Source: Octopus vulgaris
Lineage: Eukaryota
DNA: 64,000 nt
Reading direction: 5' to 3'
Assembly (NCBI GenBank): GCA_951406725.2
Contig: OX597814.1
Coordinates: 14,074,001 to 14,138,000 of the forward strand
A model generated the notes under the pieces. The model was not told the origin of the DNA, did not search any database, and worked only from the letters and a program-made list of their open reading frames with translations. Positions 4,936-64,000 of the stretch are shown here, one piece after another. Both the position numbers and the translations under genes were made by a program. Position 1 is the stretch's first letter; the number at the start of each line of letters is the position of its first letter.

Positions 4936-4984
<49 letters not shown>

Positions 4985-5031
4985 ACGTATGTGTGTTTGT
5001 GTATGTATGAATATATATATATATATTTATA

Positions 5032-6135
5032 TACAGTGTACCCCCGCTTACTCGCAGTTCCGCATTCGCGGTCCTGGTTATACACAGAAACCACCGCATT
5101 TTCACGGAATCGTAAATATCGTCCGGAATTTTATATGACTTCTTTCATGGCAATCTCTCTCTCTTTCCCTCTCTCTCTCTCTTTGCCTCCTTTCTCTCTT
5201 TCTCTCTCTTTTTATTGTCATTATTATAGCATAGATTACTGATCTAGTGGTACTACAAACTAAATTTTTCAAAACCATTATTGTTTTTAATCTCTGCTCA
5301 ATCTCCCAGTGGTGGTATGCATATATTAGAACATATCTTGAGTGTTTTATTGAGTGTTGTGATTTTCGCAGCATGTTATTAAAGCCTTAAGATGGCACCC
5401 AAACGCCCTACACATTCTAAAGCTTCTAGCACTGAAGCTAAGCTCCAGAAAATAGGTTATGATGTTCCATGAGAAAGTATAACTGATAGATATGCTCCAA
5501 GAAAGTAAACGCTATGCTGCAGTAGGTCATTGTTATGGCTGTCAATGAAATCATTATACGTTACTTAAAGTAGAAAGAGGTATCTATCAGGTCTACCGTA
5601 GTAGTAAGTTTCTGTGAGAGTGCCAAAACAACAATGTGAAATAAGCACTTGGTCAGGATAGAATCTACCTTGACACTGTGGATCACTAACTGCAAGAAGA
5701 AAAACATTTCCTTGAGGGGTAAAATCATTCGCGAGAAAGCGCGGAAATTATACCAGCATTTCTACAGAGGAGACGAAGCAGAGAGCTGAAGGCATCGACG
5801 AACCGCAACCAAGACCATTGACAGCACCGAAGTCCAAAGATTTTCAAGCCAGCAAGGAATAGTTTGAACATTTCCAGAAACGTTTGAAAATATAGTGCCT
5901 TCCTGCATGGAGACAACATCAGCCGACAGAAAAGTCGCTGAGAAGTACCTTGAGACCTTCAGGCAGATCATCAAGGACATGGGATACAAGCCGGAACAGT
6001 TTTCCAATATGGACGAGACTAACTTCTGGAAGGAGATGCCTTCCAGAACGTACTTCAAGAAGGACAAAGACAGAGCTCCACGATTTTAGGCACACAAGGA
6101 CAGAGTGACTCTAATTATGTGTGGCAATGCTGCTG
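5032..6135 (+). mobile_element. Tigger/pogo-like DNA transposon, 5' half, pseudogenised TIGD1-like transposase
   Basis: TA-CAGTGTACCCCCGCTTACTCGC left TIR. Broken ORF from 5392: MAPKRPT..., FQASKE.FEHFQKR (CENP-B-type HTH), GYKPEQFSNMDETNFWKEMPSRTY...AHKDRVTLIMCGNAA (first D of the catalytic domain). Confidence 0.85.
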
Positions 6136-18599: not shown

Positions 18600-19326
18600 T
18601 GACATTTACGTTATATATTGCGAATGGTCTTGTTAAGCAGTGCTAGTGTTAACACTTCTGTAAATAATGACATTTTATCAGTTCAAAGCTTATATCGATC
18701 ACCAAGCAATGACTTAGGAAATGGTCTAATAATGCGGTATATAAGCCCCACGACAGAAAAAAAGGTTTTCCCGTACGCGTGGTACTGCAACCCACACCTC
18801 TCTGTTTACGCGATCAGGTGTGCTACCGATTACACTAGCTAACCTTCTTGTTTTTTCTGTCAGATTTAAGAACTATGATTATTTCGTAGTTATTTTTGTA
18901 AACAAAATATCATGTGCTTTTACTGCGAATGGTTTTGTTAAGCAGTACTAATTTTTACAATTCTGTAAAATTAAACCCCTAAAGGAGGGGTAAAACCTAC
19001 TTTTTTCTGTTGAGAGCTTATATGCCCTATTATTAGAATATTTTCCTTAGTCATTGCACGGTAAACACTATAAGCTTTAAGCTTATAAAATACTATTCAT
19101 TATCATTATTTTTTACAGAATTGTAAGAATCGGCACTGCTTAATAAAGTCATTCGCAGTAAAAACACATGATATTTTGTTTATCGAAACTACTACGAACT
19201 ACTTATTGTTCTGAAATCTGAGAGAAAAAAGCAGGTAGATTCGCTACTGCAATCGCTATGACACTCGGTTGCGTAAACAAAGAGGTGTGGATTCGAGTCC
19301 CATGCGTACCGGAAAACTTATTTTTC
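18600..19326. repeat. Inverted pair of ~300-330-bp circularly permuted units carrying a tRNA-like segment
   Basis: 18757-18970 is the reverse complement of 19110-19326, and 18615-18770 matches the reverse complement of 18995-19160. The tRNA-like segment at 19233-19312 has a B box, ggattcgagtccc. Confidence 0.75.
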
Positions 19327-42096: not shown

Positions 42097-42097
42097 A

Positions 42098-42368
42098 GAA
42101 TTAGGTAAACTGAAATTTATTTGCCACATGTTTGAACTGCTAAAAAGCAAATGCACTGCAGCTATTGTGGAGAATAAATCTTATGGTAAAACTGTTCAGT
42201 GTCCCCATCTTTTGGGGAGTTCCTAATAGATAGCGACATTGAACGAACAGGGTGTTTTCACGCCTTTTTACCACAAGAGATATTTATTATCCACAGTAAC
42301 TGCAGTGTATTTGCCTTTTAGCAGTTCAAATATTTGACAAACATACTTCAACTTACCTATTTCTGCAT
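42098..42368. repeat. Inverted pair of 3' ends of the 4161-4506 repeat family
   Basis: 42098-42192 is the reverse complement of ~42265-42365; both match 4405-4506 (ctgcagtgtatttg..tttagcag....aaatat.tgacaaa). Confidence 0.8.
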
Positions 42369-54999: not shown

Positions 55000-55110
55000 G
55001 TATGGTTGCGTCGTAAGCAATCTACTTCTCAATAACACGGCTCCCGATTCAGTCACACTGTGGGGGCACCTTGGGTGGGTGTCTTTTACTATTGCCATAT
55101 GCCGACTAGA
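55000..55110 (+). mobile_element. SINE family A 5' fragment, diverged
   Basis: ttcagtcacactg.g.ggcaccttggg...gtgtctt.tactat is homologous to 50115-50162. Confidence 0.65.
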
Positions 55111-55161
55111 TTCGGCAACAGATATCACCAGAATAACTACAAGTTTCGAATTCCCCAAGCT

Positions 55162-55180
55162 TCTCCTCTTCTTCTTCTTC

Positions 55181-55212
<32 letters not shown>

Positions 55213-55319
55213 CTTCTTCTTCTTCTTCTTCTTTTTCTTCTTCTTCTTCATCTTCTTTTTCTCCTTCATCTTCTTTTTCTTCTTCTTCTTCTTCTTCTTC
55301 TTTTTCTTCTTCTTCTTCC
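55162..55319. repeat. (TTC)n microsatellite
   Basis: Direct reading. Confidence 0.95.
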
Positions 55320-55794
55320 TCTATATCTCCCTCTCTATGTTAATTACTCATCCCCTAATCGCATTTTCATTTACCTTTTGTTTCCTTTCAATATAAGACA
55401 AAAATTAATGTCAGTAAGACGCACAATACGACAGCGTACTTTTTGATGCAAGTCTAATCAAGTCCCACACTAGTGCCTAAAACCACAATCATTAGGTACA
55501 TTTTCGTTAAATCATGTCACAGAGAGAGTTGGTACAGAAAAAACTGTAGCGAATCATCAAAGGTGTGTTCAAGAATTTCTTTGTCTTATTACTTGGATTA
55601 TAACTTATTCATCACCCAACCCACAGAACGGTATTATCGTCGTGAAAGCAAGATTTTGTACACCTGAAGAATTTCGACATTTTTTAGCTCTATACTGAGT
55701 ATGTATGTGTGAGTGTGTATGTTTTATATATAGAGAGAGAATATTAATATTTGTAAGTCTCTCTAAAGGAGACTACGACAGCGGTACTGGATAA

Positions 55795-56050
55795 TAATAA
55801 TTATCGCCAAGCTAATATGGCAGTCCAGAAATATAGAACGAATGCTGCCGTTGAATAGCTCCAAAAAGCCATCGCCTCTAGCTAGCTACGTGAGACACGA
55901 ATCTGTGTCCATTATTACCATCGAAGGTAATAATGGGAATAGGTTCGTGTCTCACATAGCTAGCTAGAGGCGATGGCCTCTTGGAGCTAATGAACGGCAG
56001 CATTTGTCCTATATTTCTGGACTGCCATATTAGCTTGGCGATAACTATTA
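55795..56050. repeat. Long fold-back palindrome (~125-bp arms, 6-nt loop)
   Basis: 55795-55919 pairs with 55926-56050; about 11-12 mismatches by manual comparison. Confidence 0.92.
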
Positions 56051-56098
56051 ATATGTATACGTATATATATATATATATATATATATTGGGTATGTAGA

Positions 56099-56165
<67 letters not shown>

Positions 56166-56384
56166 AGGGATTGCTCCAAAACGAATACGAGTTCGCTCTC
56201 AGTTAATTATTCAAAATAGGTTATTCAACAGATAATATATACATATAATACTGGATATATATGTGTGTGTGCGCGCGCGCGTATAATTAACAATGTAAGG
56301 AAATGTAGAGTGAAGTATGTATAGTTCATTTAACTGCATTATAATTTGCTTTTAAGACATAATTACAAACACATTTTTAAAAAA

Positions 56385-56870
56385 AACACAATAGAAGGCG
56401 CAAAAACCTGCACATGTTTCGATTCTGACGCCTTGGTAATGCATTATTTAAAGCATTTAGGTTAAATCTAATCTTAAGAATGTAAGCTGAAAGAGGTAGA
56501 ATTTGGGTTAAAAACCAATGCTAGGAATGGTACATTGTAAGGTGTAGAATGTGGGTTCAATGCAATGTTAAGAATATAAGCTGTAAGCGGTAAAATCTTG
56601 TCAGGGACTTTGTTTGCAGCAGAAGCAAAAATTACTACTATATTGGCTCGACGTAATGTTTTGGGAAAACCAGAATTTCGAACTATAAGTATTCTTTTAG
56701 AAATAGAATTAAACGGAATAATACGGGGCTTAGCAAAGTGATTTGGAAATTAAAGGCTAGCAATATCAGCTTCAAAATTAGGTGGAAAATATTAACCTTT
56801 TCAAAATAAACCCCCAGACAGAATTTATTTTTTTTATGAAGAGCAGAAGCCTATAATATTCTATTCTATA
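56385..56870 (+). mobile_element. Penelope-like element fragment (GIY-YIG endonuclease remnant)
   Basis: YYYIGST (tactactatattggctcgacg) and NNTGLSKVIWKLKASNISFKIRWKIL. An inverted paralog lies at 60370-60775. Confidence 0.75.
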
Positions 56871-57588
56871 ATGTCCGTTTTAATACATTAATAATAATGA
56901 AAGTTACATCTTTTTTGAAGGAAATCAAATCCACAACTTAAGAAGTTAAACATATTTTTTCATATATATTGTATTTATGTTTTTGGTAAGGTAAAAAAAA
57001 ACAAGTATGTAATAACAGATATAAAATAAAATACAACAAACTTACTTACAAATATAAGAATAATATGAATAATTAAAATATTGTTATAGATTTATGGGAA
57101 AATAATTATGTAACAAAATATGAAAATGAAATATAGTAAATAAAATAAAATAAATAAATAATTTAGGAAAATACACGATAAATAATAAATAAACCGTTAT
57201 AACTGTATAATTTCCATTGGCCTGCTAGTGGATACTAGTAAATATTTAAATGTAATCGATTACATATGTGTTACTATCTACTCCTATCTGAATATTCTAT
57301 CCATTAATAGATGTATTATTCATGTTTATACACACATATACCTATATACAAATGTATACAGTAAGCGTATACATTTTCCAATATATATATTTATGTCCAA
57401 TCATTGGTTATATATCCTAAGTATATATACATTTGTATATAATTCAATATTTATTCTAAAAGCGGATATAAACGAAAATAAAACAAAATAAACTAAAATG
57501 GGATAAATAGAATAAATTAAAATTAAGATGAGATACTAATCTGTATTTTATATTATAATAGAATACATAGAAATCTTAGAATACATAT

Positions 57589-58615
57589 TGTTACGAAACT
57601 GCCGTTGCTCAAACTCGAACCCGGGACCCTATTAAGTCGAGCGACGACGATGGACCAGGCTCAGTGGAACGGGAATCCGCCACAGAGAGAAAAACGGTGG
57701 TGGGGGATGGCAGCGAACTCGAACCGGTGACCGGAGATAACAACAAGAACAACAGGAGGAAGAGAGACACGGCGGAAGGAAATTGGTTACATCTAAGAAC
57801 AGTTTATGCGACTATTACGACATAAAATAAAATGCGATACCTAGCAGATACATTAAAGAAAATAACATGCAACAGAATTAAAAAGAAAAACAACAAAGGC
57901 ATGCACGATACAGAAAGTCCGAAACAATCAAAACAAACGTTCAGCGCAATACAGTTCGAAACAGTTCAACATTAAAGTCTTTCTCTTTCTTTCTTTTACT
58001 CTTCAACACAATTCACAATGTTCCTATTTTTTGACACAATTCTTTTTTAGTTCAACAATTCTTTTTTTAAGTTCTTTACAACATAATCCAATTTACGTAA
58101 CAATCTCGTTTCTTTTACATTTCACATCAAAACTAACAAAACATACCGTTACAAGCTCCTACTACAATAGCCGTGCCTTTTCGCCGTAATCCATCTCTTT
58201 CACTCTACATGTCCCCAATGCTATCTGCCTGTCTTTCTCGCCACGCTTGTCATCCTCTTCTCTACCTCTTGCTTGTCATCTCTCACATTCACTGTCTGTC
58301 TTTCTCAACGTTGTCGTTGCCTCTCACCATCGCAACCTTCTTGGCTGACCGTCCGTATCACTGCTGTCTTTTGCCAACCGACTCTTTTCCGGCCCTTTTG
58401 CTGTCTCAGGCAGAACTGACCATTCCCGGCCAACTCTCTCTCTCGCCAACTGATCAACAAACCCAACTCGTCGCATTTTAAAGGGTGGTTTCTTAAACTT
58501 TCCCTGACCGGAAAAGGGTCAGATCTCTCTTCCAAACCCATTAATCTCTCCAGAAACCGACAGGACAAAGGCTTTAACCCGTCTGCCTGGCGCCAAACCA
58601 CAAAACCAGTCCACA
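57589..58615 (-). mobile_element. Possible solo LTR
   Basis: A ~1.03-kb, sharply bounded, CpG-richer island. The minus strand starts TGTGG and ends GTAACA. I found no convincing TSD and no coding remnant. Confidence 0.4.
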
Positions 58616-59274
58616 AGCACTCTGTTTCTCAACTGACCTCCATATCAATATCAATCAGTTGAATTATTTATATACCTAGAAAATGAGTATTACGTTTTTC
58701 TCAGCTAAGAGCGGTGTATTACGTCATTGATTCATGTTTAGCTAAAGAAAAAGTGAACAGAATATTCTACAGACCTATTAGTTCATCTAACAACTTATTG
58801 GGAGTTAATGTAAAATGTATTTATATAATTGTTAAAACTTATACTATGTACTTATCATATTTATTTATAAGTAATTTATCTCATTTATAATACAACTGGA
58901 TAAAAATTAAGTAAAATAAAATAAATTAATCATATATGCATTAAATATATATAGATATTTAAAAAGGGTAAGATGGTTAAGTTATAATATATGTATATAA
59001 GGTTAAAAAATCGTATAAATTGAAATAGATGAATGATTATTTATGCTAATGTGTATACACACACACGCATACACGCACAGCCACACGCATACGCATATAT
59101 ATAGATAAATATATATGTGCATGCATATAAATATGTATTATTTTTAAGTAATAGTTTTGTATATTAAGGTAAAATATATAATACTTTATTAAAAGAAATA
59201 TAAATATATGATTATCAATGTATATATATAGAAAAAAAAGTGAAAGGGATACAGTGAACTTGCCTTGAGGAGTA

Positions 59275-59680
59275 GAATATCAAACGTTTCGGATTTATTC
59301 GTACGTCAGGGGGTACAGAAAAAGAAAAGTTGAAGACAGAGTTTAGACCCTCTCAGCTTGAAAAACTGCCTGTAACTGATAATGGACGCAGAATAACACG
59401 GACTGTTAACGTGAAACAGAAGTTATAGGAGAGTGGGTGCAGAAAGAAGGAGGAAAGGAATGAAGGAGAGAGTAGAGGTAAGTAAATACAGGAATGTTGC
59501 AGAGTAAGTGTGGAAGGGTTATTAAAAAGGGTAAAAAAGAATTAAGAGGAAGAGAAAGGATGGAAGAAAAAACGCTCATTCATACATGTCGGGTATATGA
59601 GACGCTGTTCCTTTCGTTTCCTAGAGAAGCGGGCTCCATATTGCAAGGCCATGCCACACACTGGTAAACCTGCAAGATAT
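59275..59680 (-). mobile_element. Penelope-like element 3' end with decayed hammerhead in the 3' UTR
   Basis: Minus strand LPVCGMALQYGARFSRKRKEQRLIYP.CMNERFF resembles the PLE C-terminal RKxxEQxLI...NERF pattern. ccCTGACGTacgaataaatccGAAACGTT follows at 59282-59312. Confidence 0.65.
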
Positions 59681-60054
59681 ATATGTGCGTGTGTGTGTCT
59701 AGAAAGAAAATATTTCATATATTAAGGTATCAATATGCAAATGTCTCTAATAATTAAATATATTACGTCGTAATATCCATAATATAGCAATGTATTAACC
59801 TAATCAGATATATATCAATACATCTTTTATTTTTCATAATAATTTTAAGGGAAAATTTAATAATTCTTAAAGAATATATGTAATTCAGGTATTTATCAAC
59901 AAATTTAGTCTATAATCGAACAATAATATAAATAAAAGTAAATATTATCTTTGTGGTTAATATAGAAACTATCCAATCAACTATTTAATGATATTACGGA
60001 GATGTACTTGCATAGCGAGTGACTTGATCTGAGATCGTGTGCTGGAACGAAAAC

Positions 60055-60263
60055 AATTGCAGCGTTGAAGGTGTTTACAAGCCATTTAAGAAACACACAA
60101 AACCGTTAGATTCACTTCAACATTTAAATTTAATTTGTCAGTGAACAGGTCGCGGTCTCAAAGCGACGAAAATATTTTGACAAATTAAATTTAAATGTTG
60201 AAGTGAATCTAACAGTTTTGTGTGTTTCTTAAATGGCTTATAAACACCTTCCACGCTGCAATT
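60055..60263. repeat. 86-bp-arm hairpin (3 mismatches) whose loop is a hammerhead-like core
   Basis: 60055-60140 pairs with 60178-60263. Confidence 0.93.
60132..60186 (+). ncRNA. Minimal type-I hammerhead-ribozyme-like motif, G3:C8 variant
   Basis: aatttgtca (helix I) - GTGAACA core - extra G - gtcgc[ggtctcaaa]gcgac helix II - GAA - AATATT palindromic helix III - U17 (60177) - tgacaaatt (helix I). Confidence 0.65.
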
Positions 60264-60369
60264 ATTTAATGATAATAATTTAGGAATCGATTATTGATAT
60301 TTGGCAAATCGATATTTAGGCGCATGAAGGCAGGCCGAAATATTCTCAGTCCTCTCATTCAATAATAGT

Positions 60370-60775
60370 TTTCTTAGAGAATAGAATATTCTAGCTTTCT
60401 GTTGTACATAAGGAACAAATTCTGTCTGGAGGACGGGTTATATACTTTGGCGTAGGTTAATATTTTCCACTTAATTTTGAAACTAATATTGGTATCTTTT
60501 AATATACAAATGAATTTGCTAAGCCTTATATTATTCAGTTTAATTATATTTCTAAAACAATTGTCATTGTTCGAAATTTTGGTTTTTACAAAACATTATG
60601 TCGAACCAATATACGTTGAAGGGATTCTACAGTTTATATTCTTACCATTGGTTTTAACCCAAATTCTAACCCTTACAGCTTCAATTCTCACAGTGGATTT
60701 CACCCAAATACTTTGAGTTATGCATTATGAAGGGACCTGAATCGAAACATATGCAGATTTTTAAGTATTGTATTA
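60370..60775 (-). mobile_element. Penelope-like element fragment (GIY-YIG remnant), paralog of 56385-56870
   Basis: Minus strand YIGST*, RLSKFICILKDTNISFKIKWKILTYAKVYNPSSRQ..CSLCTTES.NILFSK. Confidence 0.75.
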
Positions 60776-61026
60776 TATTGTTTTTTGTATTTATTTGTAT
60801 CTATATCTTCAAAACAAACTATGAGGCAAATAAATTAGGTATATATATCCTCAAGTCTCCATTTTTGTACACTATATATTTAAGCTATCATAATAATCCA
60901 TAATGCATCGTGTAATGTTTCGTCTAATCTGATGGAGATTAAACCAGTGAAATTTTGGATTTATTTATCCTTAATGAAGATAACTGATTATTAACTTACT
61001 ATATATATATTTCTTTGAATTAGCTG

Positions 61027-61072
<46 letters not shown>

Positions 61073-61717
61073 TATATACATACATATATATATACATACC
61101 TACATATATATGTATATGTACATGCATATATGGGTACAGGATATCAAAATACGTTAAACACAAGGAGGAGTATTAGTGTGTGTGAGTGTATGTGTGTGTT
61201 TGTGTGTGTGTGTGCGCACGTGCCTGTGTGTACATACATGGAACAACTTGCATTATGTAGGTCTACAATTTTTCACGTTGAGAGGAACACCAATCATCTA
61301 ACTGGAAGCCGAATATAGAGTACCAAAAGTTGCCCCCGTCCCACAGATTTAAAGGGTTCAAAGATAGAACATTTCTCAAAGCCTTTCTTAAAGACGGAAG
61401 ATATATGTGCGTGTGTGTGTGTATGTGTGTGTGCATGTGTGTGTGCGTGTGTGTGTGTATGTGTTTGTGCGTGTGTAAAGTGAACATGACTGAACAGAAT
61501 GCGTTTCAATTTCGATAGAAGTAGTCACGATGCGACAAGAACACGAGTCAGAGCAACGATACGCAACATCCAAAAGTTTTACGGTGAGAGAAACGCCAAA
61601 AAGGTAAGAGGGAGAGAAAGAAAGAGTGGGCTATAGAAATAAATAAAATATATGAGCATTCTTTAATGTAGGAGCCTCAGCTTCGTCACATCCTAGAGGG
61701 TGCTGAAAGTTGTCAAA

Positions 61718-61753
<36 letters not shown>

Positions 61754-61766
<13 letters not shown>

Positions 61767-61944
61767 TTCGAGACAAAACCACTATTTTGCAAAACAAACA
61801 AGGAAAGACTTAATCAATATATAAAAATTTTTAATATAATATTTATTTCTTTATTTCTTTATATTAAACATTTTTATGTATTGATTAAGTCTTTCCTTGT
61901 TTGTTTTGCAAAATAGTGGTTTTGTCTCGAATTAATATTATATA
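61754..61944. repeat. Near-perfect fold-back palindrome (~85-bp arms) between (TA)n tracts
   Basis: tattaattcgagacaaaaccactattttgcaaaacaaacaaggaaagacttaatcaata and its exact reverse complement at ~61879-61937. Confidence 0.93.
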
Positions 61945-62019
61945 ATATTTTACTATAAAATTGGATTTAATCCTAAATCTGATTTTTTCCCTGTAAATTT
62001 GGATTTATTCCCTAATATT

Positions 62020-62086
<67 letters not shown>

Positions 62087-62123
62087 CCAAGATTTTTTAT
62101 GTGAAGTCGTGTGTTGAAACAGA

Positions 62124-62622
62124 TATTGTTACATTTCGGAATAGTCATTTTGCCAGTTTAGCCAATAAAAAACACATGCACTATATATTTGATGTTATTT
62201 TGCTTCAGTGTTATTTATTTTTTACGTTAATCTTAATCATATTTCGGCCAGAGTTCTTTCGTCTCACTCCTGTGAACGCATCAGTGGTCCTTTGTTTTAT
62301 TCTTTCTTATTTCCGTCTCTCCTTACTAACCGTCAGTCACACACACACACACGCTAAATAAACATAGACGCACATAGAGATATAAGCGTGCGCAAATGAA
62401 GACATACAATAGAAATACAAAATGGCTGACAGTTAGTAAGGAGAGACAGCAATAAGAAAGAAGAAAACAAAGGACCACTGATGTGGTCACAGGAGTGCGA
62501 CGAAAGAACTCTGGCCGAAATAAGAATAAGATTAATGTAAAAAATAAATAACACCAAATGTATAGTGCGTGTGTTTTTATTGGCTAAACTAGCAAAATGA
62601 CCATTCCGAAATATAACAATAT
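62124..62622. repeat. ~200-bp-arm inverted repeat with a partial hammerhead-like core in each arm
   Basis: 62124-62338 pairs with 62422-62622. The right arm has CTGATGT-ggtca...tggcc-GAAAT at 62477-62521. Confidence 0.88.
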
Positions 62623-62773
62623 ATATATATATATATAAGATTAATCTGCCGAAATTGCGAAGATGATCCGGTTCTTGACTGAAGATTGAAGGCTTCGAAT
62701 GTCCCGTCCGTGTTTTTTGTGTCGTCTTCTAAATGTTTCACATTCTTGTCCCAGTTTGTATTTTTTTACTTTA

Positions 62774-62810
<37 letters not shown>

Positions 62811-62898
62811 ACGTTCTTTCTATAAAACAATAGTCATCTGCTATGCTCCGTACACTTAACACATAAATATAATATAATGGTATATCTTTTTTCAACGT

Positions 62899-62975
62899 CC
62901 GACGAGATTCAACCTTGTAATAATTTGATTATTTTAATTAATTTCAAAAGTTTGAATCGAAACAGCTGTCAGAGA
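62899..62975 (+). ncRNA. Degenerate hammerhead-like motif with extended helix II
   Basis: CCGACGA-gattcaa[~39 nt]ttgaatc-GAA-ACAGCTGT-C-agaga. U4C substitution; the 5' strand of helix I is decayed. Confidence 0.55.
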
Positions 62976-64000
62976 TTATTTCTAATTTTGTAATTAATAA
63001 ATAATTATTAATTTATTTTCTATGTTTTCTTTTTTTTTATATGTATATATATCGTCAGTAGTTCATTTATGCACAAAAGAAGCACGCTAAAATATTAGAG
63101 CAGTAATATTTTTCTAGGAAGTTAGTTGTTATGGCCGGTTAAAAATTGACCGCTGGTGGTTTCGTATCTATAAAGCACTGAACCGTATAAGCAACTGCTC
63201 AGACTCAAATGACCGAAGGTAAATCACGTCTCTAAAACTCGAGGGAGAAAAACGTCACGAACAGTTAGTTTTATAACAGAAAATATATATCCGGAATAGC
63301 CGTGTAAATAGTTCCAGATGGGACGGAATCACCTCCCTTACATCGGTGCCAAACGTATCTCGAATGTTTATATAGGGAAGCTCATGATTCTTTAATAATT
63401 TAATATCTCATACACATCGCCTTGGAAAAATCTTTCAATAGCTAAACTATTCGAACACAATAATAAAACGTGACCTATGTAAAAGTTTCCAATGAAAATT
63501 TATACTCTGCACTATAACTATTAAATAAACATTCCAAACAAATATCTTCGTATGAACTGTTTGCTTAGAAGTCTCTGAAGTATTTTAAATCTTTAAGTTT
63601 CACAGAAGGACACACCTCCCTTACACTCGAAATTTTCTCACGACTGGACATATTCATGTATCATTTTACGGACATATACAGAGGCACGCACACGCAAAGA
63701 CAAACTCCACACACACACGCAAATGCACGCAAACACACACACACGAACACACGCGAACGCATGCTCACACACACATATGCGTGCAAATATATATGCGTGT
63801 ATTTATTTGAATATGCATATATACTTGGCTTTCCAATCGGACATTGATAAATTTATTTTTTATTCCTGTAAAAAAAATCATTAATAACTGTAAAAGCATT
63901 TGATATCAAATCTTTTCTAATTCCCTTAAATTTATTTTTATAATCTTTTGCTTTCTAAAATGAATCCACTATTTCATATTGATTATCTTTTTCTATTTTC

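What the first reader, a model, noticed from the sequence alone, without database searches (positions are those of the whole stretch)
60055..60263. Core-swapped (G3:C8) hammerhead-like ribozyme at the tip of an 86-bp near-perfect hairpin
Seen: every nucleotide of the 37-nt loop fits a type-I hammerhead: GUGAACA core, one extra G, 5-bp helix II (gtcgc/gcgac), GAA, palindromic helix III AAUAUU and U17. The two 86-bp arms form a very long helix I. Established: C3 and G8 form a Watson-Crick pair in the active hammerhead, and compensatory swaps restore activity in engineered ribozymes. Natural motifs are overwhelmingly C3:G8, so CUGANGA searches miss this form. Inference: a natural covariant ribozyme family; the long arms suggest fold-back self-priming at helix I during reverse transcription. 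Caveat: a UUU triplet is usually a poor cleavage site, and the short helix III probably needs a dimer.
Basis: partly seen in the sequence, partly recalled or inferred. Interest (0 to 1): 0.8.

Follow-up and report, generated by a model that had tools for sequence, protein, structure and literature searches.

The report
Reversed-core hammerhead in Penelope retrotransposon end
The hairpin is the end of a Penelope-type retrotransposon inserted back-to-back with its own inverted copy, and it carries a predicted self-cleaving hammerhead RNA whose core base pair is reversed (G-C instead of C-G) in thousands of copies, a natural form not found in the papers searched.

Summary
The motif is real: 86-bp arms (83 of 86 paired) and a loop that fits a minimal type-I hammerhead with G3:C8. 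The swap is family-wide (6,616 exact cores; 75 of 91 arms not selected on the core) and old (G3 in 31 and C8 in 34 of 40 copies of an older subfamily). The long helix is not part of the ribozyme. The 281-bp insert is a 5'-truncated inverted + direct copy of the pseudo-LTR of an autonomous Penelope-like element (RT + GIY-YIG; full-length tandem copy L295), with a 57-nt tail and a 12-bp target duplication. Native helix I is 7 bp. A sister element (54% protein identity) has C3:G8 at the same place, with compensatory helix changes, so the swap is natural covariation. Cleavage is not shown: copies do not begin at the cut site (0 of 186), and relatives carry broken cores (C9, U3·G8, C3·A8, G3·G8). 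PLE hammerheads, the extra nucleotide, U17 and U3:A8 are known. I found no natural G3:C8 in the papers searched, but Lünse 2017 could not be read. Verdict: new variant of a known kind.

The parts
59982..59993 (.). Left copy of the 12-bp target-site duplication (TATTTAATGATA)
59994..60140 (-). Inverted, 5'-truncated copy of the PLE pseudo-LTR and ORF start (unit positions 62-208); forms the left hairpin arm plus the tail
   Evidence: blast to natural copy L042; alignment
59994..60050 (-). 57-nt tail (unit 152-208), present at one end only; lies inside the 5' end of the ORF
   Evidence: 3' ends cluster at 145-154 (85 arms) and 200-208 (123 arms) of 233 arms; L295 continues into the ORF
59996..60085 (-). 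First 30 codons of the PLE ORF (ATG at 60085-60083)
60134..60263 (+). Direct, 5'-truncated, tail-less copy of the pseudo-LTR (unit 18 to about 147); holds the hammerhead and the right arm
60134..60140 (+). Helix I 5' strand (TTTGTCA); also the 7-nt microhomology at which the two copies are joined
60141..60148 (+). Core G3 U4 G5 A6 A7 C8 A9 plus one extra G before 10.1
   Evidence: family state
60149..60167 (+). Helix II (5 bp) with a 9-nt loop; the loop varies among subfamilies
60168..60176 (+). G12 A13 A14 and palindromic helix III (AATATT), predicted to pair only in a dimer
60177..60178 (+). U17 and the predicted cleavage site (between 60177 and 60178); not shown to be cut
   Evidence: hammerhead numbering
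60178..60184 (+). Native helix I 3' strand (TGACAAA)
60233..60263 (+). ORF start (ATG 60233-60235), cut off at the tail-less end
   Evidence: sequence
60263..60274 (.). Right copy of the 12-bp target-site duplication

Best explanation
The hairpin is a 281-bp insertion made of an inverted and a direct 5'-truncated copy of the end (pseudo-LTR) of a Penelope-like retrotransposon, and its loop is that element's minimal hammerhead motif with a family-wide G3:C8 core that likely cleaves only weakly, as a dimer or with protein help. Shown: the autonomous partner (RT + GIY-YIG ORF, pseudo-LTRs in tandem), the tail, the 12-bp duplication, the 7-bp native helix I, and the G3:C8 versus C3:G8 difference between sister lineages. 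Inferred mechanism: the element's endonuclease nicks both target strands about 12 nt apart. Each 3'-OH primes reverse transcription at one of two internal RNA start sites (unit ~150 and ~208). The two cDNAs run toward the RNA 5' end and are joined head to head by microhomology, here the 7-nt helix I. The templates are mostly uncleaved RNAs, many of them likely capped transcripts that start 23 nt upstream of G3. In tandem elements two hammerheads would pair through helix III and cut after U17.
For: Full-length tandem copy L295: pseudo-LTR 720-925 runs into the ORF, and a second pseudo-LTR lies at 4981-5182; both have intact G3:C8 motifs. L274 has the window's architecture at 4.4 kb. 64 of 67 inverted pairs have one tailed and one tail-less end; 28 of 45 non-microsatellite pairs have a 10-15-nt duplication. 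These traits are described for PLEs in PMC8557442 and PMC11167929. G3:C8 in 75 of 91 arms not picked on the core, 11 of 12 motifs found in ORF-bearing loci, and G3 31 / C8 34 of 40 old-subfamily copies, where N7 changes to C (29 of 40). Common variants (12% or more): core 0 of 12 columns, helices 3 of 30, loop II 6 of 9; Fisher p=0.0003 for core+helices vs loop. Compensatory changes between lineages: helix I bp 6 U-A vs G-C (old group A), helix I bp 3 U-A vs C-G and helix II bp 4 G-C vs A-U (sister), and helix III keeps its self-complementarity (AAUU vs AAUAUU). The native unit folds helices I and II without the long arm. The engineered C3G/G8C double mutant partly rescues a PLE hammerhead (PMC11167929). 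A non-templated G precedes 21 of 30 short copies.
Against: No cleavage data. 0 of 186 arms outside the window-like set start at unit 61-63, and all 10 junctions at 62 fall in the helix-I microhomology. Core+helices are not less variable than the non-ribozyme part of the unit (3 of 42 vs 14 of 149, p=0.77). Relatives carry cores expected to be poor: C9 in 96 of 100 listed sister copies, U3·G8 and C3·A8 in group B, and G3·G8 in 8 of 91 arms (38 of 74 non-C8 matches). The AAUAUU duplex is predicted at only -0.2 kcal/mol. Groups A and B were found with a pattern that fixes helix II, UGA, A9 and GAAA, so conservation at those positions is circular. Pfam gives no hit for this family's own ORF.
Confidence: 0.75

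Rival explanations
1. The motif is a hammerhead by descent but no longer cuts. It is kept for another role (protein binding, folding of the RNA near the reverse-transcription start sites, or a downstream promoter element), and G3:C8 is a fixed historical state.
For: Sister family has C9; group B has U3·G8 and C3·A8; G3·G8 copies exist; no pile-up of copy ends at the cut site; hammerhead mutants do not affect insertion in vitro (PMC11167929). The motif lies about 24-60 nt downstream of the inferred start site, where downstream promoter elements sit (recalled, not tested).
Against: The 3:8 pair is Watson-Crick in both the old and the young G3 lineage while N7 changes. Helices covary, the helix III palindrome and U17 persist, and loop II varies freely.
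Confidence: 0.25
2. One reading: the ribozyme is the long hairpin. A cleaved RNA or its cDNA folds back at helix I and self-primes, which produces the 86-bp arms.
For: In the window and in 9 other arms picked for likeness to it, the inverted arm ends exactly at unit 62, the first base after the predicted cut.
Against: That junction is also the 7-nt helix-I microhomology, and none of those 10 arms is joined elsewhere. It is 1 of 100 arms listed and 0 of 186 other arms. Inverted pairs form with junctions anywhere, up to kilobases long. The two arms end at different fixed 3' sites, one 57 nt beyond the other, which fits two separately primed cDNAs better than one fold-back.
Confidence: 0.05
3. 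A stand-alone non-autonomous retrozyme or MITE-like family with its own circular or hairpin RNA.
For: Thousands of 150-208-nt copies, most without an ORF.
Against: The same sequence is the terminus of ORF-bearing elements and runs into the ORF. 644 copies keep the upstream 3'-UTR end. No head-to-tail arrays of the short unit turned up in the fetched loci apart from one two-copy case (L061).
Confidence: 0.05

Closest known systems
Minimal type-I hammerheads of metazoan Penelope-like elements (Cervera & de la Peña 2014, PMC4209133)
   Same: Location in the pseudo-LTR; one extra nucleotide between 9 and 10.1; G10.1-C11.1; palindromic helix III; predicted dimer; U17 common (24 of 56 in Fig. S3).
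   Different: G3:C8 core. None of the 56 listed motifs starts with G3 (53 CUGA, 3 UUGA); the reported covariant is U3:A8.
PAc (Poseidon from Anolis) hammerhead and insertion mechanism (Frangieh et al. 2024, PMC11167929)
   Same: Two internal start sites inside the ORF's 5' end give a tail; both strands are nicked; uncut RNA is the template; engineered C3G/G8C partly restores cleavage.
   Different: G3:C8 is the natural state here; tail 57 nt vs 30-40; the ORF starts about 56 nt after the cut site; the protein has a CX3CxxC linker.
Neptune/Nematis-type EN+ PLEs (Craig et al. 2021, PMC8557442)
   Same: RT then CX2-5CxxC linker then GIY-YIG; inverted 5'-truncated copies; tail; (TA)n targets.
   Different: Exact clade not tested; the protein is only 20% identical to a second PLE family in this genome.
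Natural U3:A8 hammerheads (Perreault et al. 2011, PMC3088659)
   Same: Natural covariation of the 3:8 core pair.
   Different: Purine and pyrimidine are swapped (a double transversion from C3:G8).

Membership tests
Penelope-like element (EN+) | ORF with RT and C-terminal GIY-YIG endonuclease | tested here: met
   YVDD and VY..C...YIGET motifs in L274/L291. BLASTP E 1e-11, 20% over 793 aa to L101, which hits Pfam RVT_1 and GIY-YIG. 2 of the 120 listed homologues carry PF01541. The family's own ORF has no Pfam hit.
Penelope-like element (EN+) | Pseudo-LTRs from tandem arrangement | tested here: met
   L295: 720-925 and 4981-5182 flank the ORF.
Penelope-like element (EN+) | Inverted 5'-truncated copies and a tail at one end | tested here: met
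   64 of 67 inverted pairs have one tailed end; L274.
Penelope-like element (EN+) | AT-rich/(TA)n targets with variable target duplication | tested here: met
   12 bp in the window; 28 of 45 non-microsatellite pairs have 10-15 nt, 11 have none found; 22 of 67 pairs lie in (TA)n.
Penelope-like element (EN+) | Intron in the pseudo-LTR (some PLEs) | tested here: inconclusive
   An acceptor-like CTAAC..TTTCTCAG lies at the unit's 5' end, but short copies share only one upstream G (21 of 30) and no longer exon.
Neptune/Nematis clades | CX2-5CxxC linker and RT phylogeny | tested here: inconclusive
   Linker present; no reference set was on hand for a tree.
Hammerhead ribozyme, minimal type I | Core U4 G5 A6, A9, G12 A13 A14, A15.1-U16.1, H17 | tested here: met
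Hammerhead ribozyme, minimal type I | Watson-Crick 3:8 pair | tested here: met
   G3:C8 in 75 of 91 arms; the sister has C3:G8. The literal C3/G8 identity of the usual descriptor is not met.
Hammerhead ribozyme, minimal type I | Helices I, II and III around the core, with covariation | tested here: met
   Folding; compensatory changes across lineages. Helix III forms only intermolecularly.
Hammerhead ribozyme, minimal type I | Site-specific self-cleavage to 2',3'-cyclic phosphate and 5'-OH | not testable with these tools
   No raw RNA reads available; copy ends show no pile-up at the site.
Rfam hammerhead families | Covariance-model match | tested here: not met
   No hammerhead family at E<=10 in 55000-64000. 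The two C3:G8 sister motifs in the same stretch were missed too, so the blank says little.
Non-LTR retrozyme | Non-coding tandem monomers, each with a hammerhead, and no linked ORF | tested here: not met
   Linked ORF; copies are solo or inverted pairs.

The most novel reading that the evidence does not exclude
An active natural G3:C8 hammerhead, maintained for a long time in a retrotransposon lineage and not yet reported. It is one of a natural series of core variants in sister Penelope lineages (G3:C8, C3:G8 with C9, U3·G8, C3·A8, U3:A8). This would mean that CUGANGA-based searches miss whole PLE ribozyme families, possibly including some called ribozyme-free.
Probability: 0.35. Interest if true: 0.62.

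Novelty: new variant of a known kind. Interest (0 to 1): 0.45.

Why it matters
The 3:8 pair swap is known from engineered ribozymes, and U3:A8 from nature. A thousands-strong G3:C8 family next to a homologous C3:G8 sister supplies the natural covariation. It shows a blind spot of CUGANGA descriptors, which were also used to call some PLE clades hammerhead-free (PMC8557442). Closely related elements with intact, swapped and broken cores make a ready panel for the open question of whether PLE hammerheads need to cut at all. The long hairpin itself is ordinary for PLE insertions.

Tried and rejected
Rfam scan: no hammerhead hit, only miRNA-type hairpin matches below their gathering scores. The first PLE family found through Pfam GIY-YIG (781-aa ORF) is not the partner; its motif is U3:A8. 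PF26215 is not in the library. Cleavage footprint in copy ends: none. Splice-junction reading of the 5' end: not favoured because the letter before the G is mixed (C12, T9, A8, G1 of 30). Expression: no RNA holder listed; contigs only, which cannot show ends or strand. The nested dimer fold gave no useful double-hammerhead energy. One search's last letter (B) left out most 9-nt-loop copies, so its 74 matches mostly describe the 8-nt-loop subfamily and have no exact denominator. Earlier scan notes: nothing. Papers not held: Lünse 2017, Przybilski & Hammann 2007 (56), Nelson & Uhlenbeck 2008 (61), Hammann 2012 (63). No tree of PLE clades was built.

Full report
Observation. The hairpin is as described: arms 60055-60140 and 60178-60263 pair at 83 of 86 positions around a 37-nt loop; MFE -132.5 kcal/mol, z -22.9. 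The loop reads G3 U4 G5 A6 A7 C8 A9, an extra G, a 5-bp helix II, GAA, palindromic AAUAUU and U17. A descriptor allowing any Watson-Crick 3:8 pair hit only this site in the window and nothing in 60 shuffles (written after seeing the motif). Rfam gave no hammerhead hit, and also none for two C3:G8 sister motifs 2 kb away.

It is a repeat. G000 (2.8 Gb, 227 contigs; a 56%-identical protein hit carries the label Octopus vulgaris) gave 4,045 first-look candidates, 40 scored. An 18-mer spanning the G3:C8 core occurs 6,616 times, the reversed control 0 times. In 31 aligned copies both arms are family sequence and the point where the inverted arm turns into the direct arm varies. Copies with other junctions show the native 5' side. 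The basic unit is 208 nt (natural copy L042), and native helix I is 7 bp. The native unit folds helix II (P>=0.98) and helix I (P 0.70-1.0 for L295, 0.41-0.67 for L042) without any long arm.

It is the end of an autonomous Penelope-like element. Loose ends in contigs of four runs pointed to an upstream extension, and 644 copies carry it. It leads through about 1 kb of microsatellite-rich 3' UTR into an ORF with YVDD, a CX3CxxC linker and a GIY-YIG-type domain. L274 has the window's architecture (inverted tail-less copy, direct tailed copy) at 4.4 kb. L295 is a tandem: pseudo-LTR 720-925 runs straight into the ORF, and a second pseudo-LTR follows at 4981-5182. Pfam did not recognise this ORF or the sister's. 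BLASTP links it over 793 aa (20%, E 1e-11) to another family in the genome that hits RVT_1 and GIY-YIG. Of 233 distinct arms, 85 end at unit 145-154 and 123 at 200-208. In 64 of 67 inverted pairs one arm is of each kind. Of 45 pairs outside (TA)n, 28 show a 10-15-nt duplication, 6 show 6-9 nt and 11 none. The window's is 12 bp. Tandem and inverted copies, the tail and the (TA)n bias are the PLE traits in PMC8557442 (passages). PMC11167929 (parts 1-2 of 4) shows that the tail lies between two internal reverse-transcription start sites, that both strands are nicked, and that uncut RNA is the main template.

G3:C8 is family-wide, old and covariant. In 124 loci not picked by a pattern inside the ribozyme, 75 of 91 arms have G3:C8, 8 G·G, 4 G·A and 4 other. 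11 of 12 motifs found in ORF-bearing loci are G3:C8. Contigs of four runs labelled with four organisms list no variant at 3 or 8 above 5%. A pattern fixing UGA, A9, helix II and GAAA but not 3, 7 or 8 gave 104 matches, 100 listed. I fetched most of those that were not young-family copies; 78 motifs were scored, of which 6 young copies and 7 further rows (4 young-type, 3 unassigned) were set aside, leaving 40 in group A and 25 in group B. Group A, whose 3' part resembles the young family (median score 47.5 vs 26.5 shuffled), has G3 in 31 and C8 in 34 of 40, N7 changed to C (29), helix III AAUU, U17 (31) and a G-C pair for U-A at helix I bp 6. A younger sister family with intact 1312-aa ORFs (54% identity over 815 aa) has, at the same place before its ORF, C3 (98 of 100 listed), G8 (100 of 100) and compensatory pairs in helices I and II (3,144 matches). 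Within the young family, common variants fall in loop II (6 of 9 columns), not in the core (0 of 12) or helices (3 of 30; one is a U-A to U·G change); p=0.0003.

Against strong catalysis. Core and helices are not less variable than the rest of the unit (p=0.77). The sister has C9 in 96 of 100 listed copies. Group B is mixed (position 3: T15, C7, A2, G1; position 8: G16, A8, T1). G3·G8 copies exist (38 of 74 non-C8 matches, a search that by my slip covered mostly the 8-nt-loop subfamily). Copies do not start at the cut: 1 of 100 arms listed (the window's own, by eye), 0 of 36 unbiased arms, 0 of 186 arms outside the window-like set. All 10 arms that start at unit 62 sit in the helix-I microhomology. 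The AAUAUU duplex is predicted at -0.2 kcal/mol. No RNA data could test cleavage.

5' end. Of 30 short copies starting at the unit's first bases, 21 have a G where the element has C (binomial p 3e-7), and the next letter is mixed. I read this as a transcription start with a cap-derived G (inference; the cap-G signature is recalled). An acceptor-like sequence at the same place leaves a splice reading open.

Mechanism. Shown: structure, partner, ends, duplication, covariation. Inferred: two nicks about 12 nt apart, two cDNAs primed at the two internal sites, joined head to head at a microhomology, which in this copy is helix I; hence a hammerhead at the tip of a long hairpin. In tandem elements two motifs could pair through helix III and cut after U17, probably slowly or with protein help, as reported for other PLE motifs (PMC4209133, parts 1-2 of 4; PMC11167929).

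What is known. PMC4209133 describes the extra nucleotide, the palindromic helix III and U3:A8. In its Fig. S3 (supplement parts 1-2 of 3) 24 of 56 motifs have U17 and none has G3 (my count). PMC3088659 (section 8 and passages) reports natural U3:A8. G3:C8 appears as an engineered variant in PMC3884650 (passages) and PMC11167929. Searches for a natural case: 'G3-C8' 1 paper, engineered; 'G3C8' 0; 'G3 C8' 0; C3G+G8C 1, engineered; hammerhead+octopus+Penelope 1 work; further listings. Other papers seen: 10.64898/2026.07.22.740005 part 1 of 5; passages of PMC6765202, PMC10085705 and PMC6155905. Lünse 2017, a large survey of PLE hammerhead variants, and Hammann 2012 were not held; either, or their supplements, may already list G3:C8.

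Verdict. A real, well-supported new variant of the PLE minimal hammerhead; the long hairpin is an ordinary insertion by-product; activity is open. Interest 0.45.

Noticed in passing
window 62063-62622 (cores at 62478-62484 + and near 62284 -): Inverted + direct insertion of the sister PLE (1312-aa family) 2 kb from the finding; its hammerhead-like motif has C3:G8 but C or T at position 9. C9 is the family state in 96 of 100 listed copies.
   Followed up: partly
L296-L302 (e.g. G000:C17:6329500-6339400): Very young PLE family with many intact 1310-1312-aa ORFs and near-identical pseudo-LTRs; no Pfam hit.
   Followed up: partly
L097, L101 (G000:C16:20835000-20841000; C6:133343500-133349500): Two-ORF PLE family (781-aa RT-GIY frame overlapping an upstream ORF) with a U3:A8 hammerhead-like motif before ORF1; related copies have U3:A8 with A17 or C17.
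   Followed up: partly
group B loci, e.g. L198, L211, L232, L221, L226: Old pseudo-LTR family closer to the sister, with U3·G8, C3·A8 and C3:G8 cores side by side, i.e. single-step neighbours of the canonical pair. No linked ORF found.
   Followed up: partly
window 61754-61944: Second 86-bp near-perfect hairpin (98%) in (TA)n; a repeat also seen in L135/L136; no hammerhead hit; possibly another PLE end.
   Followed up: no
window 55791-56054, 42097-42364, 18756-19326: Further long inverted repeats; the first matches inverted repeats in L085/L104/L301.
   Followed up: no
L241-L270, around 1490-1511: The inferred transcription start coincides with a branch-point/pyrimidine/AG acceptor-like sequence.
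   Followed up: partly
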